Assembly: GCA_016187485.1 (NCBI GenBank)
Contig: JACPJO010000004.1
Location: 1-54,305, forward strand
Length of the DNA: 54,305 nucleotides
DNA from: Candidatus Uhrbacteria bacterium
GTDB taxonomy: Bacteria > Patescibacteriota > Patescibacteriia > UBA9934 > UBA10169
Reading direction: 5' to 3'
Shown here: positions 19,859 through 40,806 of the stretch, piece after piece
How the letters are laid out: every line of letters starts with the position of its first letter
Numbering within the stretch: position 1 is the stretch's first letter
Notes under the pieces: generated by a model
What the model was told of the DNA's origin: nothing
The model's input: the letters and a program-made list of their open reading frames with translations, nothing else
Databases searched by the model: none
Position numbers and translations under genes: made by a program

Positions 19859-19986
19859 TTGTCCCATGAGATGACATGCGGCGGCATGTCAGCTCGTGGG
19901 AGCAGGGGCGGCGGAGAGCAAGTTGCTCGATCCGACCGCCCCTACGAAAAAGAATGTGCGCTCTGGCGTTGCACCAGAGGGAGGCT

Positions 19987-22014: not shown

Positions 22015-22026
22015 TTCGCCTGCCCG

Positions 22027-22794: not shown

Positions 22795-23083
22795 GGGTTC
22801 TCCAGGGTGCGGAAAGGCCTTGTGAAGAGCCTCCGCGGGTTTGATGGGGCCGTCTCCATGCGCAGGAGCGGGGCCCGGGGGATGCCCAATGAAGGGCGGG
22901 GATTCCGTAACTGGGGGGGCGAGGGACAAGAATGACGCAAGAAAAAATTTTAAGCGTCCTTCGTCCCCCCAGAGAGAATGGCGACCGAAGTCGCCGAAGA
23001 AGAAAGGGGGCCGCACGGCACGGGGGTTGGACCCGTACCGCGCGGCATCTGTCTGTTCGAGACCCGCGATTCGCGGGGTGGGC

Positions 23084-24496
23084 CTAGCTGGCCGCGGGGG
23101 CAGCCGGAGCGGCAGGCGCTGCGGCGGGGGCCGGCGGCGTCCAGTCGGCCGGGACCACATCGAGGGCGGGCGCCTTGTACACGCTGTGCCGACGGGTCGC
23201 CCCGAAGGTCAGTCGTGCGAGGATCCGCCCCGAGGGGTCCGACTCGTCCTCCAGGTACATGACGTTGCCGATCGCGGCGCCGATCTCGAATCCCAGGGTC
23301 GGCACGAGTGCCGACTGCAGGACGGGGATGCGGAACCGGAACCGTGCGGCGAGGATGAAGTCGGGGGACTCGTGGAGTCCCTGTCCCTCTTCCCAGCCGC
23401 CCGACGTGTACTGGCCACCGACGCTCCCGCCGATGGAGAAGACGGTGCCGGCCGCGAACTCGGCGAAGAACCGCCCACCGATGCCCCACCCGTACCCGTT
23501 GTCGTTGCCGGTCAGACCGTCCAGGACGCCGCCGAAGCAGTGTCCCTTCTGGGGAGCGCAGAGGCCACCGGAGACGGAGACGTTGGCGTAGACCGCCCAC
23601 GGGAATCGCAGGTAGGCGTCCTCGCCGTTCACCTCGGCCGAAGCGTCGGTGCCGACCATGCCGAGGAAGCCGCCCTCGATCCCGAAGTACGGATCGGGGT
23701 CCTGCCCGACGTTCTCCTCGAGCGCCGTCAGACGCTTCTCGCCGTTGGCGAGCCGGACGTCCTGCTGCTCGTCCTTGTGCTCGCCCTTCTCGAGGCGTTC
23801 CAGGATGTCGTCCAGGTTCGTTGCGAGGGTGGCGAGATCGGCCGTGAGCGTGCCGATGGCGGCCGTGTTGTCCGACGTCGCCGTCTGGATCGCCGACATC
23901 GCGTTCTCGATCCCCTTGATCCGCGGCTCCAACTCCGTCTTGATGGCGGCCGGGAGTCCCTCGACCTTGAGCTTGAGCTCGTCGAGGACCTTCTGGTTCG
24001 CCGTCAGCCGGATGCTGTTCATCTGGCTCTCGTAGCGCTCGGGGCTGACGCAGGCGCCGTGGAAGCTCTTGAACGGGGAGGGCTTGAACCCCTCCTTGCA
24101 CTTGAGCTTGCAGTTGGCCGCGTCGTACTCGGTCGTCGTCGCGTTCTCGTTGGCGATCTTCTGGAGCACCTCGGCGACCTTCGCCTTCGCCGCCGCGTCC
24201 TTGCCCTTGCACGCGCAGTTGGGGTCGGGCACCACGGGAGCCACGTTCGTGCCGGCCGGCGCCGGGGAGGCGGGGGGCGGGACGATCTGCGGGGCGGGCG
24301 TGGCGCCGATGGCGGGAGCCGGCGTCGCGGGGGCGGCGGCCGGGATCTTGGGAGCGGGGACGATCGTGGGGGCCAGAACCGCCGCGGATGCGGCGGGGGC
24401 GGCCTGGGACTGCTGCGCCCAGACCTGGTTGCAGGTGAGGGTGACGCCGAGCACCATGCTCAGCGCCGTCACGAACTGGGTGTTCCGACGGGTCAT
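23084..24496 (-). CDS. GC-rich secreted protein (gene C): signal peptide, Pro/Ala linker, coiled-coil, Gly/aromatic-rich beta-type C-terminal domain
   Basis: Within ORF 23084..24748. Start MTRRNTQFVTALSMVLGVTLTCNQVWAQ at 24496, with AGGAGGA upstream. The heptad-like region is ...LKLKVEGLPAAIKTELEPRIKGIENAMSAIQ.... The C-terminus has alternating-pattern strands (FILAARFRFRIPV, TLGFEIGAAIGNVMYL). Confidence 0.75.
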   Translation of the reverse strand: MTRRNTQFVTALSMVLGVTLTCNQVWAQQSQAAPAASAAVLAPTIVPAPKIPAAAPATPAPAIGATPAPQIVPPPASPAPAGTNVAPVVPDPNCACKGKDAAAKAKVAEVLQKIANENATTTEYDAANCKLKCKEGFKPSPFKSFHGACVSPERYESQMNSIRLTANQKVLDELKLKVEGLPAAIKTELEPRIKGIENAMSAIQTATSDNTAAIGTLTADLATLATNLDDILERLEKGEHKDEQQDVRLANGEKRLTALEENVGQDPDPYFGIEGGFLGMVGTDASAEVNGEDAYLRFPWAVYANVSVSGGLCAPQKGHCFGGVLDGLTGNDNGYGWGIGGRFFAEFAAGTVFSIGGSVGGQYTSGGWEEGQGLHESPDFILAARFRFRIPVLQSALVPTLGFEIGAAIGNVMYLEDESDPSGRILARLTFGATRRHSVYKAPALDVVPADWTPPAPAAAPAAPAAPAAS

Positions 24497-24794
24497 GGAC
24501 CTGTCCTCCTGAAGCCCAACACGGCGCCGAGCCGGTGGGGCGGGTTTACCATCCGGCCTCGCAAGCCGGAGTCCGAAAACTCCGCTTGCGCGGCCTGGTC
24601 TCAAACAAATTGAGAAAGGACCGTGAGAAGCACGATCCGGTCCAGGATTCTCGAAGAAATTGGTTCCTCCGAAAATTCTGAACCGTCTAGTGCTTGGATG
24701 ATTTGGCGACATCTGTCGGTGGAGGAGAATCCAACAGAAGCACACCAAATCGTCTAAGTACTAGACGGCCGAATCCATTGAAAATGAACGTGCA

Positions 24795-25453: not shown

Positions 25454-26095
25454 CTACCACTCCTCGTGAATAAGTTGGTGCCGGCGCTTCAAACGTTCCG
25501 AGTTCATGTACACAAGCCCCACGCCGGTAAGGGCGCCGAGCACAAAGCCAGTAAAGGCGTTCACAGGAATATTTGGCTTCACGGGAAAACGCGAGTTGAG
25601 TGGCTCATCCACCAACCGCACCGACAGACCGCTCGCGCTCACAAATTGGTGCGACCGCGTGGTGAGCACAAACGCCACCGCGCGCGCAATGCGCTCGGCC
25701 TCCCCTACACTCGTGTGATACACATCTACTTCTAAAAGTCCCGTACCACGCACCACGGTGGGCTGCACCGTCTTCCGCCACACCTTCCGCCGCTTCAATC
25801 CGTCTTTTGGAAAATAGCTTGCACGAATATCAAACCCCGCACTCATCACCTCGTCATAAAATGCCGACGTGTGAATGAGTGTGGCCATGTCGTCGGCAAG
25901 GCGTTCACTTGAACGACTCGCCGTGTAGGCGTCCACAACTCCAACATTTTGCGTAATGAGTACGCGCACCGATGAACGATATTTAAGCGGCTCAAAAAAG
26001 GACAGAATGCTCGCTAGAATCAACCCAAGAATGGCAGACAAAAAAATGGTGCGCCAACCAAAACGGACAAATACCGATGCGGGGGGGGTCGTCAT
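25454..26095 (-). CDS. Wzz/chain-length-determinant-like membrane protein
   Basis: TM segments at both the N- and C-terminus flank a soluble domain. The layout matches the small Wzz/YveK-type polysaccharide co-polymerase N-terminal domain. Confidence 0.6.
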   Translation of the reverse strand: MTTPPASVFVRFGWRTIFLSAILGLILASILSFFEPLKYRSSVRVLITQNVGVVDAYTASRSSERLADDMATLIHTSAFYDEVMSAGFDIRASYFPKDGLKRRKVWRKTVQPTVVRGTGLLEVDVYHTSVGEAERIARAVAFVLTTRSHQFVSASGLSVRLVDEPLNSRFPVKPNIPVNAFTGFVLGALTGVGLVYMNSERLKRRHQLIHEEW

Positions 26096-26116
26096 ACCAC
26101 CACGAAGTGTATCATA

Positions 26117-26872
26117 TTAACTCCACCGCGCGGTAGAAAGAATAAGGAGAAGGAGAAGTCCCACAAAGACGAGATAGCGTACCAACACACGCCGCTCCAG
26201 CCGATCAATCAGCTCTGCGCGTAGAAGACCCAAAAGCCCGTAATGGAGAAGCGCCAGCGCCGCCGCACTCACCAAGTGACTTAACGGGAAGAAAGAGAAA
26301 ACGACAAAGAACTCGGTAAGCAGAAGGGAACCAAAAATCGAGATACGACGCACCGACTCTTCTTCCATCTTGCTCGCCCAAAGCGTCTCAAAAATGAAAA
26401 GTGTCTCGCCGAGAAAAAAGAGTGGGACCAAAATCCACAGGGGAAATTGCGCCAGCACAAGGAAACCTAAACTCACCATCGCAGAGAGAAACGCACTCAA
26501 TGTAGAGAAGACAAACGTGAGACGCTCAAGCGTGTAGACACGATACCGGTGGCTCTCAAACACATACAGTCGCACATGTTCCGCATACACAAGCCAGAGA
26601 ATTCCGAGCAAAGCGGCAAGGGCGTAGCGGTGTGCGTCATACTCCAAAAAGAGGAAAAACCCGTCGCTTGCAAGCGCCAGACCGGCGGGAGCAAGAAGAA
26701 ATCGGGGAGCGTGCGGGGTATTGAGGGACTGGCGCAGCAGAAACCAAAAGGTTCCAATCCCAAGCACAAGGCTTGCCGCAAGATACACAAGCGCGCGCGC
26801 CGGATCCCACGTGGCCATCAATGGCCCCGCGGCAGAAAGGACAGCAGAGAGGACAATCCACAAACGCGTCAT
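26117..26872 (-). CDS. Polytopic membrane protein, unknown function
   Basis: A 251-aa ORF with more than 6 hydrophobic segments. It overlaps neighbouring genes by 4 nt, which suggests an operon. Confidence 0.7.
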   Translation of the reverse strand: MTRLWIVLSAVLSAAGPLMATWDPARALVYLAASLVLGIGTFWFLLRQSLNTPHAPRFLLAPAGLALASDGFFLFLEYDAHRYALAALLGILWLVYAEHVRLYVFESHRYRVYTLERLTFVFSTLSAFLSAMVSLGFLVLAQFPLWILVPLFFLGETLFIFETLWASKMEEESVRRISIFGSLLLTEFFVVFSFFPLSHLVSAAALALLHYGLLGLLRAELIDRLERRVLVRYLVFVGLLLLLILSTARWS

Positions 26873-27546
26873 AGTTTTTGGACATCAAGCATAAGCGCGC
26901 CCTTCAACAGGAGACCTTCGGGCGTCACACGTACGTCTGTAAGATCGGCGTACGACTGCACTTCCCCTTTCACTTTTGCGAGAGCCATCTTAACGGCGCG
27001 GTCGAGAAACAAGCGCGCAAGCACGCGCGGCACGGGCGCCCCGCCAACACGTAAAGACTCCGTGGAGAGCTTCACCCACCCCTCCTCTACCGATGGGCGC
27101 ACTCGCCACGTAAGCGCGGTATCTTTCAATGGGAGAAATATCTCTATGCTCTCCCCCGCCACGGCAACTTGGCTCTTGGAAAAATCGACCAACCTTGAAG
27201 ACGACGTATCCCCTTGCCGGATAAGGCGCGTAAGGACAGACTCGGGAAGCGTGAGTTCGATCGTACGATCGGTGAGATTGGAAGAAACTCTGTTTGACAC
27301 GGCACGAGAAAACCACGCGTCAAACGGGATAGTGGACGGTTCCACGGCATGATCGGGGACGGGAGTTTTAAACGCCCATTGGGAAACCGTCGGCACTTCC
27401 ACAAGGCCGCTTGCCGCAGCAAGATACACAATATAACCGGCAATAGCCGCAACAATCAAAAAGGACCAAAGCACGCACGAGCCGCACCCGAAACCGTGTC
27501 GGGGACGAGACGGGGAAAGCGTTGGGTGTCTTTGAGACCCGATCAC
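26869..27546 (-). CDS. Membrane-anchored hypothetical protein
   Basis: A 225-aa ORF with a single N-terminal TM segment (VLWSFLIVAAIAGYIVYLAAA). It is translationally coupled to its neighbours. Confidence 0.65.
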   Translation of the reverse strand: MIGSQRHPTLSPSRPRHGFGCGSCVLWSFLIVAAIAGYIVYLAAASGLVEVPTVSQWAFKTPVPDHAVEPSTIPFDAWFSRAVSNRVSSNLTDRTIELTLPESVLTRLIRQGDTSSSRLVDFSKSQVAVAGESIEIFLPLKDTALTWRVRPSVEEGWVKLSTESLRVGGAPVPRVLARLFLDRAVKMALAKVKGEVQSYADLTDVRVTPEGLLLKGALMLDVQKL

Positions 27547-27977
27547 AAAGAAAGGGAGGCGCGGAGATTAGCGAGACGTTGAATTGCTTCTTCGATACGC
27601 GCATCATTGGCGCCGGCATACGCGCGGCGTAGGCTATCGAGCGCAATCACCATTTGCAGATGCGCATCTTTGGATTCGACAGGTACGCGCAACGCCAGAA
27701 ACTCTGCACCGGCAGCGGAAACCACATCTTCACGCGCACCGAGCGTTGCGGCAAGAGCCAGGCGCTCGTCCATCGTGAACAAAACTCGCAGAGCAGAATC
27801 TTTGTAAGAAGACGGCGAGGCGCTATCACGGGGCGCTTCTGCGAAGAACGGCGCGCGCGCTGTGGGTACATAGAGCCACAACACGACCGCGGCAAGCGCG
27901 ACAGTGATTGCCACGACGGCAAGGGGAAAGAGGCTTCGGTGGTGATGCGCATGGAACATACTACGCCGTCTCAGCAT
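27543..27977 (-). CDS. Membrane-anchored hypothetical protein
   Basis: A 144-aa ORF with an N-terminal TM segment (LFPLAVVAITVALAAVVLWLYV). Confidence 0.6.
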   Translation of the reverse strand: MLRRRSMFHAHHHRSLFPLAVVAITVALAAVVLWLYVPTARAPFFAEAPRDSASPSSYKDSALRVLFTMDERLALAATLGAREDVVSAAGAEFLALRVPVESKDAHLQMVIALDSLRRAYAGANDARIEEAIQRLANLRASLSL

Positions 27978-28968
27978 CGTAGAAGAGATCTTCCATCACC
28001 ACGGATACCATCGTCGCCACCGGAATCGCAAAGATAGCGCCCACAAGTCCGCCAAGTTTCAATCCAATCAAGAGGGCAACAATGCTCACCACGGGATTCA
28101 GGCCCGTGACTTTCTGCATAACGCGCGGCACAAGAATATTGTTTTCCGCCTGCTGGATGAGAACATAGAGCAAAAGAACAAGCCCGCCCTTTGTCGGAGA
28201 TTCTGTGAACGCCAGCACAATGGCGGGGATGGAAGAGAGGATGGGACCGAGATAGGGAATGATCTCCAGAACTCCGGCAAGCAGCGCGAGCACGAGAGCG
28301 TAGCGGACATCAATAATAGAGAGGCCGATATAGGTAAGCACGCCGATGATAAGGCCCAAAATGATTTGTCCGCGCAGCCACTGCCCGATTTTTTCACGCA
28401 TGCGCTCAATCAACTGCGTAAGATAAGGCTGATACTCGTGCGGGGCCACCGTGCGGAACACGCGCGCGAGCGCTTGTTCTTCCACCACCATATAAAACGT
28501 AAGTACCAGAACGATGATCGCCGCGGCCACCCCCCCCACAAACCCACTTACCGTTTGAGAAAAGCTTTGCAGCGTAGCGAAAATCTGGCTTGGCGTATTC
28601 CCTGTTCCAATCGTGAAGCGGCGGAATTCATCGAGGACTTTGGAGAGCTCCTGTGTGTACCCAAACGATTGGACGAGTTGCGTGGCTTGTTCGATAAGCG
28701 GCGGAATGAACAGAAGAAATGCGAGTCCTATCACCACGACTAAACACAGATAAATAACGATGACAGAAAGACCGCGAGGAATGTGGTGCTCGGCAAGCCA
28801 ATCGGCAAATGGATCAATAAGCGCAGCGAGCAACAGCGCCACAAACAACATAGCGACGATGTCGCGCAAAAACCACACAAGCGCGAAACCGAGCAGGACC
28901 AGAATCACTTTGACGATCGTCCACGTGCCCACGCCAACCACATGAGCTCCTCCATTTTTGAGAGACAT
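27961..28968 (-). CDS. AI-2E family transporter (PerM/UPF0118)
   Basis: A polytopic protein whose C-terminal region, QQAENNILVPRVMQKVTGLNPVVSIVALLIG...GAIFAIPV, is typical of the AI-2E family. Confidence 0.85.
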   Translation of the reverse strand: MSLKNGGAHVVGVGTWTIVKVILVLLGFALVWFLRDIVAMLFVALLLAALIDPFADWLAEHHIPRGLSVIVIYLCLVVVIGLAFLLFIPPLIEQATQLVQSFGYTQELSKVLDEFRRFTIGTGNTPSQIFATLQSFSQTVSGFVGGVAAAIIVLVLTFYMVVEEQALARVFRTVAPHEYQPYLTQLIERMREKIGQWLRGQIILGLIIGVLTYIGLSIIDVRYALVLALLAGVLEIIPYLGPILSSIPAIVLAFTESPTKGGLVLLLYVLIQQAENNILVPRVMQKVTGLNPVVSIVALLIGLKLGGLVGAIFAIPVATMVSVVMEDLFYDAETA

Positions 28969-28995
28969 AGTAGAAACAGTGTAGCAAATGCTCCG

Positions 28996-29280
28996 TCAAC
29001 TGTCATTTGAAATATGGCGATACCCGATACGTACCAGTGTTTCAGAAAGCTGTCGTTTTAGTTGAGCTCTTCCGTTTCCACCTTTAAGATACTTCTCTCG
29101 TCTCTTCGCTTCAAACATTGTTGGATAAGCTTCATAATAGATAAGCTGAAGAGGAAGTCGTTGCTGGGTAGCTGGAACGAGACCTTGCAAATGCTTTTTC
29201 ATCCTCGCTTCGAGATCCTCCGTATAACCAACATACAACCTGTGGTCTTTGAAACTAAAGAGGACGTAAACAAAAAACAT
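28996..29280 (-). CDS. GIY-YIG nuclease superfamily protein (small, UPF0213-like)
   Basis: MFFVYVLFSFKDHRLYVGYTEDLEARMKKH...IYYEAY...A.RREKYLKGG matches GIY...YVG...R...E. The start at 29280 is preferred over 29310. Confidence 0.8.
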   Translation of the reverse strand: MFFVYVLFSFKDHRLYVGYTEDLEARMKKHLQGLVPATQQRLPLQLIYYEAYPTMFEAKRREKYLKGGNGRAQLKRQLSETLVRIGYRHISNDS

Positions 29281-29351: not shown

Positions 29352-29452
29352 GGCCAGCTAAGCTGGCCTGCCCTCGCTGAGCTATTCATCCTGTTGGTCT
29401 TTTAGCCAAGCTAAGCTTGGCTCTGACCGGAACCAACCGAGCTCAGCTCGGT
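29352..29452. repeat. Three related AGCT-core palindromes just 3' of the tmRNA
   Basis: GGCCAGCT-a-AGCTGGCC (29352-29368), AGCCAAGCT-a-AGCTTGGCT (29404-29422) and ACCGAGCT-c-AGCTCGGT (29436-29452). Confidence 0.7.
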
Positions 29453-29842
29453 GGTGGAGCTGGAGGGATTTGAACCCTCATCCGAAGAACTTGTTTCCTT
29501 ACACGTTTTTCAAGCGAAGTCTCGTGGATATACTGCAGGCGGGCAAGCACGAGACCACCAACCCTCTTGCAGACTCACGGCCAGTCAGAACGGAATGCGT
29601 GAGTGAACACCCCGCCCTCAAGTCCTCAAGATATAACACCCGTGAGGCCGCCCGAGGACAGACAGCTGCGGATGCAGAGCTCGCGCTTAGGCGAGCGCTG
29701 GAACGAATGCGGGCATAGAAAATGCCGCGCGGATTCGGTTGAAGATATTGGCAAGTAATCTTCTTGTGCCGGTGTTAACGAAGTCGGCACCCTTCGGCTT
29801 GCGTGTGAAGGGCATGGCTCCCGTCGAAACCAAATCAGCCCC
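29452..29842 (-). ncRNA. ssrA: tmRNA (SsrA)
   Basis: On the minus strand the 5' end is GGGGCTGATTTGGTTTCGACGGG and the 3' end is GGGTTCAAATCCCTCCAGCTCCACCA (tRNA-Ala-like acceptor/T-arm). The internal tag frame is GCC AAT ... GCG CTC GCC TAA (29752-29687), giving ANIFNRIRAAFSMPAFVPALA*, with the stop in a hairpin loop. It is adjacent to smpB. Confidence 0.9.
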
Positions 29843-33676: not shown

Positions 33677-33711
33677 ATGAAAAACACTCACGCAAAGTGA
33701 GTGTTTTTCAT
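33677..33711. terminator. 15-bp perfect hairpin downstream of the giant STAND gene
   Basis: ATGAAAAACACTCAC-gcaaa-GTGAGTGTTTTTCAT. Confidence 0.6.
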
Positions 33712-33781
33712 GGCGGGACGTGATGGAACGGGTGGGAATGCATTTTATGGCCGTAACGGTATAAACGGCTCCCAAACACGC

Positions 33782-36700
33782 CTAAGGCATGCTTGGCGGA
33801 AGAATAATGGGACTTACGTTTAGCAAACGATACTGTTCAACCTTCTGTACGTCTCCGTAGCCGTGTTCTTGATGACGATAGGTGGATTGAACCAGGTAGC
33901 CCATCCTCAGCCCGTTCTGGCTCAAGAAGCCTTCCAGGAACGTCCGATCAATTTGCAGCCATTGGCCGTAGGGTAATGGCATGTCCATATTATTTCTCTC
34001 CTTCAAGCCCTCTATCCAATCGCTGTGGGTAATTATTGTCTCTTCTCCGTTCCTGTACTCGTAGATTAGCCCCCGTATTTCTCCTGTAGAATCCTGCCTA
34101 ATTTCCGGTACGGGAAGGAATTGTAGTTGATAATCTCTAAAATATTGCCAAAGGTTTATGGTCAAATCACGGGTGCGAGCAACTAGAGGGTAAACGATCA
34201 AATCTTTTATTTTTGTTGGATTTAAATGGAGTGGATACAGGCATGCCGCTGGATTATCCAAAAAACTAAAAGGAGACGGAGTGTGCGTTGGTATTAGGGT
34301 GAGAGCGGGGTTGTTTACAATTAATTTCGCCACTTCTTCAGCGGTTGGAAGCTCAGAACCAACCACCTCATACGCAAAGCCTATCACGGAAATTGAATGA
34401 TGGGGATCGGTCTTAGCTGTAGGTGGTGGCATGATGGCGCCCTCAAAAGCTAAGAAGGGTTTGTCTTGGTTGATTGCCAGAATTGATTCAACTGGGGTCT
34501 GTAGATCAGCCTCCACCAGTCCCACTTCTGTCAAGCGCCCTTCAGCTAATCTTGGCCACCAGGCCGGAAGCCTTCCCATGATTTTTTGCCAAATACCTAA
34601 ATCTACTGGCAAAGTTGCATAGGCATATTCAAGGTAGAAATCTTCTGGAATCTTTCCGTCTACGTAGAAGCTGTGAAGCACTCTCAGGAAAGCTGACCTG
34701 TAAGCTTCACTGACGCGTGTAGACATCCCAACCAGCGATGCGCCTCGCTCTCTTCCTTGGAAATGTCCTGCCCCTGCATTTAAAGAAATTCCATTTTCAT
34801 GGATGAGCACTGAAGAGGTATGTGCCCATTGCTTAATAAAACCGACACCAATCTTCCCTTCAATATCTTTAGCTCGTTCGTAATAGATTGGAGCTAAAAA
34901 TGATTTAATATATTTCTGGAAAAAATCATCTATGACAAAAGCGGTAGGTGCCGTAGAGACCATCCCAAAAGGCGGCAGGACAATAGCCTCAATATCTTCA
35001 TCTAAAAGAGCGGCTAACTCCTGAAGTAATTCTTGAATTACAGCTGAGTTTACCTTCAAATTCGAAACAATATCCGCGAGTTTTATGTAAGAGATGTTTT
35101 CTTTTGCGGTCAATGAAGATGCTCGGATTAAACACAGGAGATAGATAGCCACAACACTCTCAAGAGGTGCTCGTTGAAGTTTATCAAGGAACTTTTTGTA
35201 TAATCCTTCTCGTTCCGAAGAAGAAATAAGCAGCTGAGCAATTGCTGTCGCGGCTCGTTCTCGAACCAGTGGACTTGGCCATGTTAATCGTTGAACTACC
35301 AGGTCGAACTCGTCCACTTCATCAGCAGCGTACCTGACCTCTTCCCAGATAGGCGGGGGTAATTTAGTTTCCGCCATTAGGGAGTCGGCAAAGATGATAC
35401 TTGCCTCGGTGATGATTTCTGCGTTCACAAGGTCACCGAATAACACAAAGAAGTCGACAGCACGTGCGATGGGCACAAAGTATTCCAAACCGTCCCTCCA
35501 TTTGCTCCCAACAGCGATGCTATTTTCGAAAAACTCTAAATGACGTGTCGGGTATTTATCTCGTAGAAACGCCCAGCGTGCTTCTGCCTTCTTTTTGTCA
35601 GTCCAATAGGATTGCCAGCCGTTATCGTTTGCCTGTGCACGACAAAGCAAATCAAATGCTCGTCCATTATTGAATTCGTAGGCCAGAGGATAGAGTACGT
35701 CGAGTAGCTCTCCACCAAGATGATTTAACTCAGCTTCGGGTACTACAGCAACAAAGCTCCTGTAGACCTGCTCTTTATTTCCATTGCCGAGCCAATATAT
35801 AAGCCATCCATGCAAATATACTTCTCGTTCCCACGGGCTATCAAACCTCCTTTCATTTACACTTTGTACCAAAACATCCGGAGGAACACTGCTGAAATCT
35901 TCAGCAGAGGCCGGACGAGTATAGGGAGTCGGAGCATCTTTTTCTGGGTAAGTTATTTCCCCAAAGTAATCCGTAATCGTACTCAAGGCCTTAGCGGCAC
36001 CTTCTTGTTTCTGTGCAACGATACCGAGCGACTTGTATGAATCCTCATCAAGAGCTGTTGTTGCTAGCGCGGTAGATACATCGGAATCATACGGCGATGA
36101 TTGAACAATGACTTCGAAGAGATCTTCCGCGTGGAATAAGTACTCTGAGTCTGCATTTACATAGTAGTCCTTATATAGAGTCGGTCGATCAAATTTATCA
36201 AAGACTTGAGCAAGATTCAGTGAAAGATGATTGGTTCCATCTCCATCGGTATATTCAGTTACGTTTTCTACAATTGGTGCGATCGATGCCAGCCAATGAC
36301 GCATTTTTACTGCTTCAACACCTGCTGTTCCACAAGCCAAAATGGCATCTAGCACTCCATCTAGGTACATGTCCTTGTGATAGCCGTATCCGAGAAGATT
36401 TTTTGCAGAATCTAAAAGTAACTCTTTTGCACGTTCAGTGTCTCCCTGAATCCTGCAAAGTGTAGCGAGATCAGCGAAAGAAGCAGTTCTTTCTGAAAAG
36501 TATCCCACTGATTCCTTGAGATTTGTAACTTGAGTCTCATTAAAATGAGCATGTGCCGCACTCGAAAAAACCGGCTTACACTGCTTGATAGAAAATTCTA
36601 ATAGATTAGCCGCATTAAAAAACGGAGTACTTAAAATCGATATGACATCCTCCGGTGTGAATTGATGTAATGATTCGACGGCGATTTTTAACATCACTAA

Positions 36701-39691
36701 ATCTGAAAGACTCAAGGAAAGCGATGCGGTGAACGCCACTTGCAAACCAAGTAAGTCACGATCCGCTTCCCAGGTCAGCTTCCTGAGCGATTGCAAAGGT
36801 GTAAAAAAGATACGGTAGTCAACTTTTGACTCACTTTTTATTTTTTGTGCAATTGCGAGGCAGGCAGTCAAAAGAGCTCCGGCTGCTTCAGACGCCCATA
36901 TTTCTGGAGCCGCATTTATCCATTCCTTGATTTTTTCCTCTTCACCCTTGAGCCCGTAAACAAGACCTATCAGAAATAGATCGTGGAAAAACTTAGTCCA
37001 CTTTTCTTTATCCAAATTTTGATACTCCGGCACCTTTGTGGGGAGATCTTCGTACGCAGGAAGTACGGGAAGTTTATCGGAGAAAACTCCATTTACCGCT
37101 CTATAAACGTCATGAAACGGAACAGTGTGCTTAGCAAGATTTTCTTTAAATTTCTCCGTCGCGTGAACAATGTCGTATTTAGCGCATTTATCCAAAATAT
37201 CCTCCACAACTTCAGGCGTGATCTCTTGTTGAAGCAGGAGTTTAACCTTCTCAACTTGATCCAGCTTTAAAAGTTGGGATGCGTAGATAGACAGTAGATC
37301 TTGAGACCAGCCTAAGTCAGAAAATTGAGCTATATACTTGACCACTCTTTCTACCTTGTGTGTACGGTCGTACGGAACAACCGTCACTAGTGCCTCGGTG
37401 ATTTTTGGCATCTGGCCGTTTTCTTTGTTTCGATATTCCTGACGGCCATGTCGATCTTGCAGGATTGTTATGATTTCTTCTGGAATATCTGCACTCCCGG
37501 ACTGATCAGCCACTTCCGCCACAACGGTCAGCGGAGTTGCGCCAAGGTCTTTTATTTTAAGTTCGCCCAGCATTTCTGGGTTAAGCCTGATCGCCTCAGC
37601 AAAGATATTTTCGGCACCCTCTTCAGAAGAATCTTCTGAGTTTGAATAGTATTGGCGGAGATGAGAAAGCTGAAGAGCTTTGGCGAAATCTTTCTTTTTA
37701 AAAGCGGCTTCTGTTCCAAGTCGTAGTAGTTCTGTAATCTGATAGCTATTTCGAGGAAATGCAATGGCTTCAACGAGCCACCGTTTGTCTAACTTTAAGA
37801 TAGGCTCAGAGTTGCCGGTTTCGAATTCTATCTTAGCTAGTTCAGCCCAACGTAAAGAGTCATATGGGCACGAGACAAGCCATTCCTTAATCTCTTTTTT
37901 CAGAACAACCTTGCGCTCATCGAAGTCAGGCTGTTGAAGGAGAAATACTTCAAAGCTGTTATGATAAATCGAGATTCGACCTTGCGTATCAGGCTTAGTG
38001 AGATGCTGTATATCCCTAAAAGCCGCAGCTATTTCCGAAGGATTTGTCTTGGAAATACAATCAATCAATTGCACTTTTTTGAATGTGAAATTTACACTCG
38101 CCAAAGTAAAGAGGATCGTCTTCGCCTCATCAGAAAGATGCGACCACAGGGCTTGATAATAGCTCGTAATCTCGCCACCGTACGGCAAAAGATCCTTGAT
38201 AACATATTCGGTTATCAATGTATTGCCGTATCGTGACTTGATTTCATTGAGAACGTAGCGAAGATGAAGCGGATTACCTTGGGTGAGGTTAAAAATTTTT
38301 GCGACCACCGCTGTTAACGCATCTTCTTCCGACGGTATATTGATTCTCGCTAAATTCTTTCTGATAATCCTATCTACAGCATCTGTGCTCAAACCAGGAA
38401 GTTTAATCCATTCCGTAACCGGACACTTCTGCAAAATTATTAGTGGTAGATGCTCAGAAACTTGCTGTTGTGTACCCAAAACAATCCATAAGCCCCTTTG
38501 TGGGAAGCAAACGCTTTGCAAGAATTTTTTCAGCTCGTCTATGTCCGCGTGCCTGACCACATGATCAAGGCCATCGATAATTAAAACAAAGGTTTTATTT
38601 TGTTGCGCAACAAAAGAAGCCGCAGCATTAATAAATTCTCGCGGAGGAATGGATTGTGAGTTTTTATTTGCAAGACCCCCTAAGGCTTCCGGGTACTCCT
38701 TGAACTGCGCCTTAATAGCTTCAATGACCCTCTCGGCATTTAGTCTCTCTTGAGAGTTCGTTTCCTCTGGAGAGAGGTGGTAGTGATGCCTTACAGACAT
38801 GACTTCCTTTTCCTCAAGAGTTGCGCATAACTTTGAAAGATAAACGCTTTTGCCTGTTCCTGGATTTCCGGTAAATACCTTAACCCCTCCTTCAACTTTC
38901 TTTAGATCCTGAAGAATCTCTTGGTGCGCCGTCTCATCAAAGAATTCAAAATCATCCGGTATTAGAAAGTCTTCTTCTAAACCCCTGGGAGCATCAAACT
39001 CACACCAATCACGCAACTGACCAAGACTAATTGGTTGCGTTGGACTTTTTCTGCATTCTTTCCCTATTTGATGAAGTAGATTGACGACGCCGTTCTCTGT
39101 TGCGTTTAGATCCTTATAAAAACGCTCAAAATTCTCCTTCTCGAATTCGTCCGGAACTTTCTGTGCAAAGTTAAAACTAAACAATTTAAAAAAACTGGCG
39201 GCAACATCCTCCTCACCGATAGCTGCAATAATCTTCGCGAACAGATCGCTATCCGATGCTTTTATTGCATCAATGTCGATCTTTTTGTTATCGCCCAAAA
39301 AGCTGACGATATTGGCCTCAGCTCCGCTGTCCGTGACCAAGCCCGCATACTTTACTTTTTCCTTGAGCTCCTCCCGCTCGATAGAATCAGCCCATTTCTT
39401 CAGTAGGGATGGTTTTCCTTCTTTCCCCACGAGCAGATCATCCCAAGACCATAGATTTTGCGGATCCTGTCGGTGTTTGACCTGGTAAAAGTGATAAAGG
39501 TCACCCTTGTCACGCAATATTATGTCGTCCAAATAAAAACCTCCCGTGCCGGATTCTTCGGGCGCAGTTTCAAATTGGATTGATCTGAAAGAATCAGGGT
39601 CGACTAGCCAGTCACCGCATAGCTTCAACCCCCAAAGATCCTGGTAATCGAACCCACTTCTAATTGAACTCGTGGTATTTCTCCGGGTCAT
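33782..39691 (-). CDS. 1969-aa Cap4/DUF4297-like nuclease + STAND P-loop NTPase + large C-terminal region (Avs/NLR-like candidate defence protein)
   Basis: The N-terminus has GFDYQDLWG, IQFE, LDDIIL and YQVKH, a PD-(D/E)xK-type D...QxK pattern. Walker A is FTGNPGTGKS (aa 273-282) and Walker B is VLIIDGLDH (aa 369-377). GNPLHLRYVL follows, then more than 1300 aa without obvious repeats, including a HEAT-like LVRERAATAIAQLL. Confidence 0.85.
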   Translation of the reverse strand: MTRRNTTSSIRSGFDYQDLWGLKLCGDWLVDPDSFRSIQFETAPEESGTGGFYLDDIILRDKGDLYHFYQVKHRQDPQNLWSWDDLLVGKEGKPSLLKKWADSIEREELKEKVKYAGLVTDSGAEANIVSFLGDNKKIDIDAIKASDSDLFAKIIAAIGEEDVAASFFKLFSFNFAQKVPDEFEKENFERFYKDLNATENGVVNLLHQIGKECRKSPTQPISLGQLRDWCEFDAPRGLEEDFLIPDDFEFFDETAHQEILQDLKKVEGGVKVFTGNPGTGKSVYLSKLCATLEEKEVMSVRHHYHLSPEETNSQERLNAERVIEAIKAQFKEYPEALGGLANKNSQSIPPREFINAAASFVAQQNKTFVLIIDGLDHVVRHADIDELKKFLQSVCFPQRGLWIVLGTQQQVSEHLPLIILQKCPVTEWIKLPGLSTDAVDRIIRKNLARINIPSEEDALTAVVAKIFNLTQGNPLHLRYVLNEIKSRYGNTLITEYVIKDLLPYGGEITSYYQALWSHLSDEAKTILFTLASVNFTFKKVQLIDCISKTNPSEIAAAFRDIQHLTKPDTQGRISIYHNSFEVFLLQQPDFDERKVVLKKEIKEWLVSCPYDSLRWAELAKIEFETGNSEPILKLDKRWLVEAIAFPRNSYQITELLRLGTEAAFKKKDFAKALQLSHLRQYYSNSEDSSEEGAENIFAEAIRLNPEMLGELKIKDLGATPLTVVAEVADQSGSADIPEEIITILQDRHGRQEYRNKENGQMPKITEALVTVVPYDRTHKVERVVKYIAQFSDLGWSQDLLSIYASQLLKLDQVEKVKLLLQQEITPEVVEDILDKCAKYDIVHATEKFKENLAKHTVPFHDVYRAVNGVFSDKLPVLPAYEDLPTKVPEYQNLDKEKWTKFFHDLFLIGLVYGLKGEEEKIKEWINAAPEIWASEAAGALLTACLAIAQKIKSESKVDYRIFFTPLQSLRKLTWEADRDLLGLQVAFTASLSLSLSDLVMLKIAVESLHQFTPEDVISILSTPFFNAANLLEFSIKQCKPVFSSAAHAHFNETQVTNLKESVGYFSERTASFADLATLCRIQGDTERAKELLLDSAKNLLGYGYHKDMYLDGVLDAILACGTAGVEAVKMRHWLASIAPIVENVTEYTDGDGTNHLSLNLAQVFDKFDRPTLYKDYYVNADSEYLFHAEDLFEVIVQSSPYDSDVSTALATTALDEDSYKSLGIVAQKQEGAAKALSTITDYFGEITYPEKDAPTPYTRPASAEDFSSVPPDVLVQSVNERRFDSPWEREVYLHGWLIYWLGNGNKEQVYRSFVAVVPEAELNHLGGELLDVLYPLAYEFNNGRAFDLLCRAQANDNGWQSYWTDKKKAEARWAFLRDKYPTRHLEFFENSIAVGSKWRDGLEYFVPIARAVDFFVLFGDLVNAEIITEASIIFADSLMAETKLPPPIWEEVRYAADEVDEFDLVVQRLTWPSPLVRERAATAIAQLLISSSEREGLYKKFLDKLQRAPLESVVAIYLLCLIRASSLTAKENISYIKLADIVSNLKVNSAVIQELLQELAALLDEDIEAIVLPPFGMVSTAPTAFVIDDFFQKYIKSFLAPIYYERAKDIEGKIGVGFIKQWAHTSSVLIHENGISLNAGAGHFQGRERGASLVGMSTRVSEAYRSAFLRVLHSFYVDGKIPEDFYLEYAYATLPVDLGIWQKIMGRLPAWWPRLAEGRLTEVGLVEADLQTPVESILAINQDKPFLAFEGAIMPPPTAKTDPHHSISVIGFAYEVVGSELPTAEEVAKLIVNNPALTLIPTHTPSPFSFLDNPAACLYPLHLNPTKIKDLIVYPLVARTRDLTINLWQYFRDYQLQFLPVPEIRQDSTGEIRGLIYEYRNGEETIITHSDWIEGLKERNNMDMPLPYGQWLQIDRTFLEGFLSQNGLRMGYLVQSTYRHQEHGYGDVQKVEQYRLLNVSPIILPPSMP

Positions 39692-39757
39692 TTCATGCTT
39701 TTATTGCAGATGTAGATTATCTCGTTTTACTGTCTTTGTCTCCTTGACCGCGGTTAA

Positions 39758-40297
39758 TTAGAAAGATAGCTCCACTTGCTTTCCGTCCAAACCTTGCAGG
39801 TGATAGACGAACTCCTCGTAGTCCGTGTTCGAATTCAAGCTATATAGGGCTACACAATCCGCATCATAAGCGTCATTCAGCTTTTTTGAGTACGGGTCTT
39901 TCTGCGCCTCGGCAAAGAGCGCTGCTGACTGTTCTGTTTTGAACACGGCAACTTTGGCAAATGTGCTCTTTCCAAACTCTGCGTGTAACTGTTTTCCTAG
40001 GGTCGCCATGAACTCATCATTTAGGTACTGTTCCTCCACGACGATAGATTTCCAAATGTAACCGTTTTCCGAATTATCCCAGACGACCTCGTAAGGGACT
40101 TTTACCTGTGCCACTTCGCGCTGTTCTCCTGACCCATCCATCATTCCAACGATAGGGAGCTCTGCAAGAAGCTTCTGCGCCTCCACTATGCGGAGCAGGT
40201 AGATAATCAAGTCAATCTTCGAGAGAAGTGGCAAAGAGACTTTAACGACGTAGATAGGCGGATTAATGCCTTGCTGGAATTGTATATCTCGGGGCAT
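39758..40297 (-). CDS. Small hypothetical protein upstream of, and probably co-transcribed with, the STAND gene
   Basis: A 540-nt ORF in AT-rich DNA, 66 nt upstream of the giant gene. The start is uncertain: the first ~55 codons are antisense to the recombinase remnant, and an alternative start MMDGSGEQ lies at 40144. Confidence 0.55.
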   Translation of the reverse strand: MPRDIQFQQGINPPIYVVKVSLPLLSKIDLIIYLLRIVEAQKLLAELPIVGMMDGSGEQREVAQVKVPYEVVWDNSENGYIWKSIVVEEQYLNDEFMATLGKQLHAEFGKSTFAKVAVFKTEQSAALFAEAQKDPYSKKLNDAYDADCVALYSLNSNTDYEEFVYHLQGLDGKQVELSF

Positions 40298-40663
40298 CTC
40301 GAAAAGGACGACTACGTGAAAAAGAAAAATGAACTATTGTCCGAAAAATCGGCCTTGGCGGAAAAGCTGAATGATAGCGGACAATCAACAAATAATTGGC
40401 TCCAGCAAACAGAAGACTTCTTTGGGTTGGCTCATGCCGCGTACGAAACATTCAAGAGTCCAAAGACGACCTTGGTACGCAAGAAGCAAATCTTACAGGA
40501 CATCGGTTGGAACCTTGAACTCTCCGATGGAAAACTGCGCTGGGAGTATAAAAAGCCGTTCGACTTCCTCGTAGAGCGACAACCAGCATTTATTTCGGTT
40601 GGAACTCGAAAATATAGCTTAGGTAAAAAGAAAAACACCTCTCTCGAAAGAGAAGTGGTTTTC
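40133..40663 (+). pseudogene. 5'-truncated large serine recombinase (C-terminal coiled-coil region only)
   Basis: The frame is open from 40133 (after TGA 40130-40132) and reads ...DVDRRINALLELYISGHLEKDDYVKKKNELLSEKSALAEKL...KKQILQDIGWNLELSDGKL, typical of the C-terminal part of large serine recombinases. No catalytic N-terminal domain is encoded upstream, where all + frames are closed. The frame reads on into the tRNA. Confidence 0.6.
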
Positions 40664-40740
40664 TGGCGGGTCGGACGGGACTCGAACCCGCGATCTTCGC
40701 CGTGACAGGGCGACGTGTTAACCAGCTACACTACCGACCC
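40664..40740 (-). tRNA. tRNA-Asp (anticodon GTC), CCA encoded
   Basis: Minus strand: GGGTCGG TA GTGT AGCTGGTTA ACAC G TCGCC CTGTCAC GGCGA AGATC GCGGG TTCGAGT CCCGT CCGACCC G CCA. This folds as a 77-nt cloverleaf with GTC in the anticodon loop. Confidence 0.92.
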
Positions 40741-40806
40741 ACGGTAGAAAGCGCCGGCATAATAGCATGGGTCTTTTCGACCGGCAAGGAAAGCGGGGTC
40801 CGACCA

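What the first reader, a model, noticed from the sequence alone, without database searches (positions are those of the whole stretch)
33782..40297. AT-rich two-gene cassette with a 1969-aa Cap4-like nuclease / STAND NTPase giant protein, a candidate Avs/NLR-like antiphage system in a CPR-type genome
Seen in sequence: a 5.9-kb minus-strand ORF lies in DNA clearly more AT-rich, with A/T-ending codons, than the flanking housekeeping genes. Its N-terminus shows the G(F/Y)xYQ - E - D - QxK pattern (GFDYQDLWG, IQFE, LDDIIL, YQVKH; nt ~39476-39664). I associate that pattern with DUF4297/Cap4 dsDNA endonuclease (PD-(D/E)xK) effector domains. Aa 275-282, GNPGTGKS (nt 38846-38869), and aa 369-377, VLIIDGLDH (nt 38561-38587), form Walker A and B motifs. 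A helical GNPLHLRYVL segment follows, as in STAND/NACHT-type NTPases. Established knowledge: an N-terminal nuclease, a STAND ATPase and a long C-terminal sensor make up the architecture of Avs (AVAST) and bacterial NLR-like antiphage proteins. Inference: this is a defence module carried on a degraded integrative element. Defence systems of this class are poorly documented in reduced CPR-like genomes, and the C-terminal two thirds look unlike TPR-type Avs sensors. A 128-179 aa ORF sits 66 nt upstream and may be a partner gene.
Basis: partly seen in the sequence, partly recalled or inferred. Interest (0 to 1): 0.8.

Follow-up and report, generated by a model that had tools for sequence, protein, structure and literature searches.

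The report
Avs3-like antiphage STAND nuclease on island
A 1969-aa gene in a CPR (Uhrbacteria-like) genome encodes an intact NLR-like immune protein (DNA-cutting domain, ATP-driven switch, large sensor shaped like the phage-terminase sensor Avs3) carried on a decayed mobile island beside a tRNA gene; it is a good but fairly ordinary example of a known kind of defence, and the small neighbouring gene is not its partner.

Summary
A 1969-aa minus-strand ORF (33782-39691) lies in DNA of GC 0.42-0.45 (GC3 0.41), against 0.52-0.59 (GC3 0.57-0.66) in the flanks. Cap4_nuclease and NACHT both pass Pfam's cut-offs. D55, D56, Q70, K72 and the Walker A/B residues are invariant in 40-79 full-length homologs. 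AlphaFold2 models of both halves (pLDDT about 90) have one best PDB match, SeAvs3 (8dgc), the Cap4-STAND terminase sensor. So the C-terminal two thirds are Avs3-like: an alpha-solenoid plus a terminal beta-rich domain. The gene sits on a 7-kb island at tRNA-Asp, bracketed by a 15/16-nt direct repeat. The island carries only the C-terminal remnant of a large serine recombinase. A Ca. Uhrbacteria relative (79% identity) has the intact 11.8-kb element. The family has 669 clusters at 50% identity and occurs in 234 species, spread patchily over CPR, Bacteroidota, Proteobacteria, archaea and plasmids. Its neighbourhoods vary and often contain defence genes, and no gene recurs beside it. The small upstream ORF is a near-orphan, is truncated here, and elsewhere precedes other cargo, so it is not a partner. 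No curated model (PADLOC 2.0, NCBIfam 2026) covers the family. Verdict: a new member of a known kind (Avs-type STAND), probably terminase-sensing. Interest is moderate to low.

The parts
33782..39691 (-). Giant gene, 1969 aa: Cap4 nuclease, NACHT/STAND NTPase, alpha-solenoid, C-terminal beta-rich domain. Intact, with all family-invariant residues present.
38987..39691 (-). aa 1-235: Cap4/DUF4297-type PD-(D/E)xK dsDNA endonuclease effector. E41, D55, D56, Q70 and K72 are the putative active-site residues.
   Evidence: Pfam PF14130 aa11-189, 33.5 bits. PADLOC LmuA and Cap4 'Effector' models. D55, D56, Q70 and K72 are invariant, also in the distant branches.
37892..38944 (-). aa 250-600: STAND NTPase module (NBD, helical domain, winged helix). 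Walker A is GNPGTGKS (aa275-282) and Walker B is LIIDGLDH (aa370-377).
   Evidence: Pfam NACHT aa272-447, 35.5 bits. PADLOC Avs1b aa263-595, 2e-22. P277, G280, K281, D373 and D376 are invariant. Foldseek hits to Avs3, Avs4, plant NLRs, CED-4 and ORC/Cdc6.
34508..37891 (-). aa 601-1728: all-alpha TPR/HEAT-like solenoid sensor. It carries the conserved polar loops GYGYHKD (aa1101-1107) and EYTDGD (aa1146-1151). A module boundary lies near aa 1460.
   Evidence: AF2 model pLDDT 90.5. The only significant PDB hit is SeAvs3. Loop conservation. Split and short variants.
33785..34507 (-). aa 1729-1969: C-terminal beta-strand-rich domain. It is positionally equivalent to the 'C-terminal sensor' described for SeAvs3 and EcAvs2.
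   Evidence: DSSP of the model. The published description is in PMC13601566. The equivalence is inferred and was not tested on this domain alone.
39758..40297 (-). Small ORF (179 aa as listed; the homologous part is aa 47-179). It is an N-terminally truncated remnant of a ~186-aa Zn-ribbon + TM + ~120-aa-domain protein of the element backbone, not a partner gene.
40155..40705 (+). C-terminal remnant of a large serine recombinase (ORF 40271-40705, 144 aa, 83% identical to the C-terminus of the intact 545-aa L017 protein). The ORF reads into the tRNA. The deletion junction is at about 40154.
40664..40740 (-). tRNA-Asp(GTC), the integration target. The island lies downstream of its 3' end.
33705..33720 (+). 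Distal att-like direct repeat TTTTCATGGCGGGACG, followed by a ~30-nt block conserved with L017. It overlaps the hairpin at 33677-33711.
40659..40673 (+). Proximal att-like direct repeat TTTTCTGGCGGGTCG. It spans the last 10 nt of tRNA-Asp (including CCA) plus 5 nt downstream.
33677..33711 (.). Perfect 15-bp hairpin with a 5-nt loop at the island edge, downstream of the giant gene. L017 has a hairpin with a different stem sequence at the same place.

Best explanation
The gene encodes a single-protein, Avs-type (antiviral STAND / bacterial NLR-like) defence protein with the SeAvs3 architecture.

Proposed mechanism, by analogy with SeAvs3 and SeAvs7 (inferred). In the resting state the protein is an ADP-bound, autoinhibited monomer. 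The C-terminal alpha-solenoid and terminal beta-rich domain bind a conserved phage protein made during infection. The large terminase subunit is the most likely target, because SeAvs3 is the only significant structural match of the sensor. Binding permits nucleotide exchange at the NACHT/STAND module (K281; D373/D376). The protein then oligomerises, probably into a tetramer. That brings the N-terminal Cap4 PD-(D/E)xK nuclease domains together (D55, D56, Q70, K72), and they degrade dsDNA indiscriminately. The infection is aborted.

Shown here. The gene works alone, with no conserved partner. It spreads horizontally. In this Uhrbacteria-like CPR genome it arrived on a large-serine-recombinase integrative element inserted at the 3' end of tRNA-Asp. 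That element has since lost about 4.2 kb: most of the recombinase, five small ORFs and the N-terminus of the small ORF. It is therefore immobilised, while the defence gene stays intact.
For: Domains: Cap4_nuclease and NACHT exceed Pfam's cut-offs. PADLOC's Avs1b model matches the STAND core at 2e-22, and its LmuA/Cap4 effector models match the N-terminus.

Conservation: D55, D56, Q70, K72, P277, G280, K281, D373, L375 and D376 are invariant in 40- and 79-sequence alignments at 28-84% identity. The motifs persist in branches at 23-30% identity.

Structure: the aa 1-800 model (pLDDT 89.9) best matches SeAvs3 8dgc_A at E=7e-16. The aa 770-1969 model (pLDDT 90.5) has only SeAvs3 as a significant hit (E=3.7e-10, TMq 0.47). 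Generic solenoids score TMq about 0.1 at E>=2.8e-3.

Published mechanism: SeAvs3 tetramerises on terminase binding and its nuclease then cuts dsDNA. SeAvs3 and EcAvs2 share a beta-rich C-terminal sensor (PMC13601566). For Cap4-STAND SeAvs7 see PMC13581612.

Sensor under purifying selection: 34-40% mean pairwise identity, against 43-47% for the enzymatic domains.

Distribution: 234 species, patchy across bacterial and archaeal phyla. 44 plasmids, 20 of them conjugative. 669 clusters at 50% identity, nearly all with the same ~1950-aa layout.

Context: no neighbour family occurs in more than 4 of 80 loci. Immediate neighbours include ResIII, HamA, methylases, AbiH, BrxH, integrases and transposases. 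The Paceibacterota copy lies between type I and type II R-M genes.

Island: tRNA-Asp; the intact element in L017, whose recombinase has Resolvase, Recombinase and Zn_ribbon_recom domains; collinearity with a 4.2-kb gap; a direct repeat found exactly twice in each genome, with 0.01 or fewer expected by chance; low GC and GC3.
Against: There is no experimental evidence for defence, ATPase or nuclease activity in any member of this family.

The family profile finds no solved Avs structure at the sequence level, SeAvs3 included. No Avs3 model in PADLOC or NCBIfam scores. The Avs3 relationship, and with it the terminase guess, rests on predicted-structure similarity alone.

I did not obtain per-residue Foldseek alignments, so I did not show separately that the terminal beta domain aligns.

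Some neighbours are housekeeping genes such as tRNA synthetases. Defence-gene enrichment was not tested statistically against a background.

No promoter above chance was found upstream of the gene. The deletion may have removed upstream expression signals, so activity in this particular genome is not shown.

The strongly conserved polar sensor loops could point to a ligand or a catalytic site rather than a protein interface.
Confidence: 0.75

Rival explanations
1. The protein has the same Avs-type mechanism, but the sensor recognises something other than the large terminase. Candidates are another conserved phage protein (portal, capsid, tail or replication protein), a host factor perturbed by infection, or a small molecule or nucleotide bound by the universally conserved polar loops GYGx(H/R)KD and TDGDET.
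For: The family is undetectably related to Avs3 in sequence. Lee et al. 2026 show that different Avs families with similar TPR-like sensors sense 13 different phage proteins, and that some may sense non-protein molecules. The invariant H1105, D1107, D1149 and D1151 lie in loops of the solenoid.
Against: SeAvs3 is the only significant structural match of the 1200-aa sensor, at TMq 0.47. SeAvs3 itself reads terminase active-site residues and bound ATP, and that could equally explain conserved polar sensor residues.
Confidence: 0.3
2. It is a two-gene system in which the small upstream ORF (39758-40297) acts as a regulator, antitoxin or co-sensor of the giant protein.
For: The two genes are on the same strand and 66 nt apart. 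The pair is kept in the closest relative, L017.
Against: A small-ORF homolog is present in 1 of 80 family loci and in only 4 clusters among 5.8 billion proteins. In L084 and L086 its homologs precede genes unrelated to the giant family, including a Cas4-like nuclease and an SNF2 helicase. The window copy lacks the Zn-ribbon and TM N-terminus that L017 and P0247 have. No conserved neighbour of any kind was found.
Confidence: 0.03
3. The protein is a non-immune STAND/NACHT protein. It could be a signalling or regulatory ATPase, or a function of the mobile element itself, such as addiction, exclusion of competing elements, or element maintenance.
For: Many STAND clades are not defence-related: 391 of 589 clades in Lee et al. 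2026. The gene travels on plasmids and integrative elements. Some copies have housekeeping neighbours.
Against: Fusion to a Cap4-type nuclease with an intact active site is one of the effector criteria Lee et al. use for defence association. The fold matches a proven antiphage protein over its whole length. Neighbours recurrently include R-M, Hachiman, Abi and BREX-type genes. The distribution is patchy and cross-domain.
Confidence: 0.07
4. In this genome the gene is a silent relic. The element decayed, upstream expression signals were lost, and the ORF is intact only because the deletion is recent.
For: A 4.2-kb deletion ends within the small ORF directly upstream. No promoter-like site above chance lies upstream of the gene.
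Against: A 5.9-kb ORF with every family-invariant residue intact is unlikely to persist without selection in a reduced genome. The 66-nt spacer and its flanks are retained. CPR promoters are poorly described by the sigma-70 scan.
Confidence: 0.1

Closest known systems
Avs3 (SeAvs3, PDB 8DGC; Gao et al. 2022, as described in PMC13601566 and PMC13581612)
   Same: The order of parts is the same: N-terminal Cap4-like nuclease, STAND NTPase, very large alpha-solenoid sensor, beta-rich C-terminal domain. The size is similar (1969 aa against about 2000). It is the best PDB structural match for both halves (E=7e-16 and 3.7e-10; TMq 0.44-0.47). It is a single-gene system.
   Different: There is no detectable sequence similarity: phmmer and a 40-sequence family profile find no solved Avs structure, SeAvs3 included, at E<=1. 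No Avs3 HMM hit appears in PADLOC or NCBIfam. The target is unknown. The hosts include CPR bacteria and archaea.
Avs1b (AVAST type 1; NCBIfam NF041810, PADLOC PDLC02159)
   Same: It is the closest sequence model for the STAND core (aa 263-595; 2e-22 in PADLOC, 8e-16 in NCBIfam). Avs1 is reported to be predicted structurally similar to Avs3 and to sense terminase.
   Different: The match covers only about 320 of 1931 model positions. The score is 56 bits against an equivalog cut-off of 1500. The Avs1b effector is a protease, whereas here it is a Cap4 nuclease.
Avs7 (SeAvs7; Lee et al. 2026, PMC13581612)
   Same: It has the Cap4 nuclease, STAND, TPR-like sensor layout. Its published mechanism is ADP-bound autoinhibition, target-induced tetramerisation and Cap4-mediated dsDNA cleavage.
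   Different: Avs7 senses the major capsid protein with a bilobed TPR and recruits EF-Tu. No Avs7 structure appeared among the matches in the PDB copy searched, and I could not compare sequences.
Bacterial NACHT proteins (bNACHT; Kibby et al., bioRxiv 10.1101/2022.07.19.500537)
   Same: The NACHT module passes Pfam's threshold. The tripartite layout is effector, NACHT, C-terminal sensor. Nuclease effectors are known, for example the Mrr-like REase of bNACHT25.
   Different: I could not assign the protein to a specific bNACHT clade. The effector here is Cap4-type rather than Mrr-type.
CBASS Cap4 and Lamassu LmuA (Cap4/DUF4297 nuclease effectors)
   Same: The nuclease domain is homologous and has the same D...QxK active site.
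   Different: There is no SAVED domain or CD-NTase operon as in CBASS, and no LmuB SMC partner as in Lamassu. The nuclease here is fused to a STAND NTPase.

Membership tests
Avs (antiviral STAND) superfamily / bacterial NLR-like | Central STAND NTPase with intact Walker A and B motifs | tested here: met
   Pfam NACHT 35.5 bits against a cut-off of 26.7. G280, K281, D373 and D376 are invariant. Fold matches to Avs3, Avs4, plant NLRs and CED-4.
Avs (antiviral STAND) superfamily / bacterial NLR-like | N-terminal defence-type effector domain | tested here: met
   Cap4_nuclease 33.5 bits against a cut-off of 26.2. D55, D56, Q70 and K72 are invariant.
Avs (antiviral STAND) superfamily / bacterial NLR-like | Large (>=400 aa) C-terminal repeat-type sensor | tested here: met
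   The sensor is about 1370 aa. The AF2 model shows an alpha-solenoid plus a beta-rich domain (pLDDT 90.5). It matches the SeAvs3 sensor.
Avs (antiviral STAND) superfamily / bacterial NLR-like | Genomic association with defence genes or mobile elements, and a patchy distribution | tested here: inconclusive
   The qualitative evidence is positive: variable neighbours, R-M, Hachiman, Abi and BREX-type genes, integrases, plasmids and a tRNA island. No statistical enrichment against a genomic background was computed, and some neighbours are housekeeping genes.
Avs (antiviral STAND) superfamily / bacterial NLR-like | Protection against phage, and trigger-dependent oligomerisation and cell death | not testable with these tools
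   This needs phage challenge or co-expression assays and biochemistry.
Avs3 | Sequence membership (Avs3 HMMs, or detectable homology to SeAvs3) | tested here: not met
   No Avs3 model hit in PADLOC or NCBIfam at E<=1. Neither phmmer nor the family profile returned any solved Avs structure, SeAvs3 included, from the PDB sequences.
Avs3 | Whole-length structural correspondence to SeAvs3 (Cap4, STAND, TPR sensor, C-terminal sensor) | tested here: met
   8dgc is the top hit for both models: E=7e-16 with TMq 0.44, and E=3.7e-10 with TMq 0.47 over about 1400 columns.
Avs3 | Recognition of the phage large terminase subunit | not testable with these tools
   No complex prediction or assay is available here.
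Avs1b (NCBIfam NF041810 equivalog) | Full-length score of at least 1500 bits, and a protease effector | tested here: not met
   The score is 56.4 bits, and only model positions 217-530 are matched. The effector is a nuclease.
Lamassu (LmuA with LmuB SMC) | An adjacent LmuB SMC-like ATPase partner | tested here: not met
   The LmuA HMM hit is confined to the Cap4 region. No SMC gene lies in the island, and no neighbour is conserved.
CBASS Cap4 effector | SAVED sensor domain and a CD-NTase operon | tested here: not met
   Only the endonuclease part of the Cap4/SAVED models matches. No CD-NTase gene is present.
Integrative element with a large serine recombinase at a tRNA | Recombinase gene, tRNA target, flanking att-like repeats, compositional contrast | tested here: met
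   The element is intact in L017, with Resolvase, Recombinase and Zn_ribbon_recom domains. The window keeps a remnant. Also tRNA-Asp, a direct repeat found exactly twice in each genome, and GC 0.44 against 0.55.

The most novel reading that the evidence does not exclude
This may be a distinct, still unnamed Avs family that shares the Avs1/Avs3 fold but has no detectable sequence similarity to them. It is conserved in length and sequence from CPR bacteria to Methanosarcina and Thermoplasmatales. Its sensor carries near-universal polar loops (GYGx[H/R]KD and TDGDET). These loops may read an immutable feature of a phage enzyme, such as the terminase active site or its bound ATP, or they may bind a non-protein ligand. 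If so, the family would give a direct handle on what infects CPR bacteria and some archaea. It would also show that ultra-small episymbionts use NLR-type abortive immunity, delivered by serine-integrase islands that have a swappable defence-cargo slot next to a Zn-ribbon/TM backbone gene.
Probability: 0.3. Interest if true: 0.55.

Novelty: new member of a known kind. Interest (0 to 1): 0.35.

Why it matters
CPR/Patescibacteria have small genomes, and little is known about their phages or their immunity. This is an intact 5.9-kb NLR-like defence gene, about 0.5-1% of a typical CPR genome. It has been kept while the mobile element around it decayed, which suggests real selective value. If the sensor detects terminase like Avs3, that implies pressure from conventional tailed phages. 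The family is moderately large (669 clusters at 50% identity), occurs in both bacteria and archaea, and lacks any curated model. Adding an HMM for it would improve defence annotation. The sister loci also show an island backbone with exchangeable defence cargo. In concept, though, nothing here departs from the established Avs paradigm. A 2026 survey of 359,879 prokaryotic STAND representatives may already include this family.

Tried and rejected
- PDB sequence searches with the protein and with a 40-sequence profile gave only noise (Talin, CheA, adenylate kinase).
- Foldseek of the sensor against BFVD viral structures gave nothing at E<=0.001.
- tblastn against 50,697 phage genomes gave no match.
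- The supplementary tables of Lee et al. 2026, both the Nature and bioRxiv versions, are not held as text. I therefore could not map the family to their STAND clades, sensor clusters or Avs7-24 names.
- NCBIfam and PADLOC scans of five distant members (Klebsiella, Acinetobacter, Halomonas, Sphingobacterium, a Thermoplasmatales archaeon) gave only domain-level hits.
- Neighbour clustering over 80 loci found no conserved partner. The largest clusters cover 4 loci: one is a recombinase-sized protein, the other is the split-off C-terminal module of the family itself.
- The repeat finder missed the att repeat because of a 1-nt indel. A gapped pattern search and a local alignment recovered it.
- The sigma-70 promoter and terminator scans were not above chance.
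- The partner-gene hypothesis for the small ORF was rejected.
- Lamassu and CBASS membership were rejected because the partner genes and domains are absent.
- A literature search for Avs in Patescibacteria found nothing specific.


Full report
OBSERVATION. The window contains a 5,910-nt minus-strand ORF (33782..39691; 1969 aa; ATG). Its N-terminal residues N5, T7, R11, G13 and Y16 are near-invariant in homologs, which fixes the start. GC is 0.42-0.45 across 34-40 kb, against 0.50-0.59 on either side. GC3 of the giant gene is 0.413, against 0.57-0.66 for ten flanking host genes. The A/T-ending-codon claim is therefore right. A 179-aa ORF (128 aa from an internal Met) lies 66 nt upstream on the same strand.

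DOMAINS AND CATALYTIC RESIDUES. Pfam gives NACHT (aa 272-447; 35.5 bits, cut-off 26.7) and Cap4_nuclease (aa 11-189; 33.5 bits, cut-off 26.2). PADLOC matches the STAND core to its Avs1b model (aa 263-595, 2e-22) and the N-terminus to LmuA and Cap4-effector models. NCBIfam's Avs1b equivalog scores only 56 bits against a cut-off of 1500, so the protein is not Avs1b.

More than 120 full-length homologs (1940-1990 aa, 32-79% identity, about 100% coverage) were retrieved. In alignments of 40 and 79 sequences, D55, D56, Q70 and K72 (nuclease), P277, G280 and K281 (Walker A) and D373, L375 and D376 (Walker B) are invariant. The same motifs persist in Bacteroidota and Proteobacteria members at 23-30% identity.

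STRUCTURE. AlphaFold2 with the family alignment gave confident models. For aa 1-800, pLDDT is 89.9 and pTM 0.78. For aa 770-1969, pLDDT is 90.5 and pTM 0.83. The C-terminal part is an uninterrupted alpha-helical solenoid up to about aa 1700, followed by a beta-strand-rich domain of about 230 aa.

Foldseek against the PDB puts SeAvs3 bound to terminase (8dgc) first for both halves. The N-terminal model scores E=7e-16 with TMq 0.44 over 884 columns, ahead of a STAND-TPR protein, Avs4, plant NLR resistosomes, CED-4 and ORC/Cdc6. For the sensor model, 8dgc_B and 8dgc_A are the only significant hits (E=3.7e-10 and 7.3e-10; TMq 0.47 and 0.42; about 1400 columns). Generic solenoids such as karyopherins, condensin and PP2A-A score E>=2.8e-3 with TMq about 0.1.

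So the claim that the C-terminal two thirds look unlike TPR-type Avs sensors is not supported. The sensor has the Avs3 shape. The literature states that Avs1-3 sense the large terminase, that Avs1 is predicted to resemble Avs3 structurally, and that SeAvs3 and EcAvs2 share a beta-rich 'C-terminal sensor' that binds the terminase ATPase (PMC13601566). At the sequence level the relationship is invisible. Neither phmmer nor the family profile finds any solved Avs structure, SeAvs3 included. No viral structure resembles the sensor.

FAMILY SIZE, DISTRIBUTION AND CONSERVATION. A scan of one genome per species found relatives in 234 species. These include:
- CPR lineages: Uhrbacteria, Paceibacterota, Shapirobacteria, Falkowbacteria, Kaiserbacteria, Parcubacteria.
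- Other bacteria: Nitrospira, Clostridia, Elusimicrobia, many Bacteroidota, and many Gamma-, Beta- and Epsilonproteobacteria.
- Archaea: Methanosarcina, Methanothrix, Thermoplasmatales.

An exhaustive phmmer search with the sensor alone found 669 clusters (50% identity) at E<=1e-3 and 213 at E<=1e-30. In nearly all full-length hits the sensor starts at residue ~770-800 of a ~1950-aa protein, so the sensor is tied to this one architecture. Shorter forms exist. Some genes are split near aa 1460 into a ~1470-aa and a ~500-aa protein. The Methanosarcina versions lack the terminal domain.

Distant members lie on 44 plasmids, 20 of them conjugative, and none lies in a phage genome. The sensor is almost as conserved as the enzymatic domains: 34-40% mean pairwise identity against 43-47%. 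It contains near-universal polar loops, GYGx(H/R)KD at aa 1101-1107 and TDGDET at aa 1148-1153. That indicates purifying selection on recognition of an invariant feature. The loops' function is unknown.

NO PARTNER GENE. All-against-all clustering of ORFs within 5 kb of the gene in 80 loci found no neighbour family in more than 4 loci. The 130 immediate neighbours hit 115 different Pfam families, none more than four times.

By tblastn, the small upstream ORF has a homolog only in L017 among the 80 loci. It falls in only four clusters among 5.8 billion proteins. The intact form (L017, and P0247 at 186 aa) has a CxxC...CxxC zinc ribbon and a TM helix, and the window copy lacks both. In two other metagenomic contigs its homolog precedes genes unrelated to the giant family. 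In L086 these are a Cas4-like PD-(D/E)xK/RNase H protein and an SNF2 helicase resembling BrxH, DrmD and ZorD. In L084 it is an unknown protein of more than 899 aa. The small ORF is therefore best read as a backbone gene of an island family with an exchangeable cargo slot (inference).

THE ISLAND. A tRNA-Asp(GTC) lies at 40664-40740 (-), next to the cassette. The ORF at 40271-40705 (+) is 83% identical to the C-terminal 144 aa of a 545-aa protein in L017 (Ca. Uhrbacteria, CAIKHN010000003.1). That protein carries Resolvase, Recombinase and Zn_ribbon_recom domains.

L017 has the same order of parts: tRNA-Asp, intact recombinase, five small ORFs, a 203-aa small ORF, then the giant gene at 79% identity. 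Window 33795-40153 aligns to L017 15900-9539, and window 40155-40741 aligns to L017 5301-4715. The window therefore lacks 4.2 kb. L017 also has an extra 178-aa ORF downstream of the giant gene.

The motif TTTTC(N0-1)TGGCGGGNCG occurs exactly twice in each genome, in direct orientation, bracketing the island. The positions are window 33705-33720 and 40659-40673, and L017 4783-4797 and 16552-16566. The chance expectation is 0.01 or fewer, and 0 of 500 shuffles reached the alignment score. The proximal copy spans the 3' end of the tRNA. The island is thus about 6.97 kb here and about 11.8 kb in L017, and here it is immobilised.

The window's FtsZ is 73-81% identical to Ca. Uhrbacteria/Patescibacteria proteins, so the host is CPR. 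Outside the island the two genomes are not collinear.

NEIGHBOURHOOD TYPE. The Paceibacterota copy (L081) sits between a type I R-M HsdR, YgjP and HNH genes and a BglII endonuclease/methylase pair. Across all loci the immediate neighbours include ResIII (4), DEAD (3), HamA (2), DNA methylases, AbiH, BrxH, SngC, DpdJ, phage-integrase domains, transposases and MobC. They also include tRNA synthetases and other housekeeping genes. This is the pattern of a horizontally mobile defence gene, but I did not compute enrichment statistics.

MECHANISM (inferred by analogy). SeAvs3 tetramerises on terminase binding and its nuclease then degrades dsDNA. SeAvs7 is a Cap4-STAND-TPR protein that is ADP-bound and autoinhibited until its target clamps the sensor. 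ATP binding then drives tetramerisation and Cap4-mediated DNA cleavage. The protein here has every element needed for that cycle, with the catalytic residues intact. I therefore propose the same cycle, with the large terminase as the favoured trigger. I put about 0.35-0.4 on terminase specifically and about 0.75 on the Avs-type mechanism in general.

COMPARISON WITH THE KNOWN, AND NOVELTY. The protein works like Avs3 and Avs7. It fails the sequence-membership tests for Avs3 and Avs1b. It lacks the partners that define Lamassu or CBASS. No curated model covers any branch of the family in PADLOC 2.0 or NCBIfam 20.0, and RefSeq calls members 'ATP-binding protein' or 'dsDNA nuclease domain-containing protein'.

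Lee et al. 2026 classified 359,879 prokaryotic STAND representatives into 589 clades and 684 sensor clusters, and named Avs7-24. The family may well be in their tables, which I could not read. I therefore rate it a new member of a known kind. Its points of interest are the CPR host, the cross-domain conservation of the sensor, and the clean reconstruction of a decayed serine-integrase island. Interest is moderate to low (0.35).

Noticed in passing
window 29452-29842 (-): A tmRNA gene (Rfam RF00023, 120.8 bits, full-length) that the ARAGORN scan did not report.
   Followed up: partly
window 19876-24748: GC rises to 0.66-0.69. Minus-strand ORFs 19987-21630 (547 aa), 22027-23160 (377 aa) and 23084-24748 (554 aa) encode signal-peptide or lipoprotein-like proteins. 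They are extremely Asp-rich, with repeats (DDDDNDS..PLPDDDD) and CDGxDNDCDG-type cysteine motifs. They may be surface or metal-binding proteins of the episymbiont.
   Followed up: no
window 26000-29000: Strong positive AT skew (+0.24 to +0.40) on the + strand. It coincides with minus-strand genes for multi-pass membrane proteins (26117-26872, 26869-27546, 27961-28968).
   Followed up: no
L086 162-5553; L084 495-3862; L017 9323-15913: Homologs of the small Zn-ribbon/TM ORF sit directly upstream of different large genes: a Cas4-like nuclease plus an SNF2 (BrxH/DrmD-like) helicase, an unknown protein of more than 899 aa with no Pfam or PADLOC hit, and the Cap4-STAND giant. This suggests a cargo-exchange hotspot in an island family of Uhrbacteria-like genomes.
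   Followed up: partly
L017 6546-9067: Five small ORFs lie between the serine recombinase and the small ORF. One has DUF5659 and the others have no Pfam hit. All are deleted in the window, and they may be excision or regulation genes of the element.
   Followed up: partly
L054, L060, L067, L072 (Serratia, Halomonas, Phytopseudomonas, Brevundimonas); L014, L018, L022 (Methanosarcina): Some family members are split near aa ~1460 into a ~1470-aa protein and a ~480-620-aa protein. Stand-alone ~500-aa proteins that match only aa ~1460-1969 are frequent in the representative library. The Methanosarcina versions (1529-1599 aa) lack the terminal beta-rich domain.
   Followed up: partly
alignment position E41 of the giant protein (window nt 39569-39571): The Bacteroidota and Brevundimonas branch has Gln in place of the otherwise conserved Glu41 of the nuclease domain, while DD and QxK stay intact. 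The effect on catalysis is unknown.
   Followed up: no
window 33677-33711 and L017 16566-16596: Both genomes have a strong hairpin abutting the distal att-like repeat, but with different stem sequences (AAAAACACTCAC/GTGAGTGTTTTT against AAAAACACGACC/GGTCGTGTTTTT). The structure is conserved rather than the sequence. It may be a terminator or part of the recombination site.
   Followed up: partly
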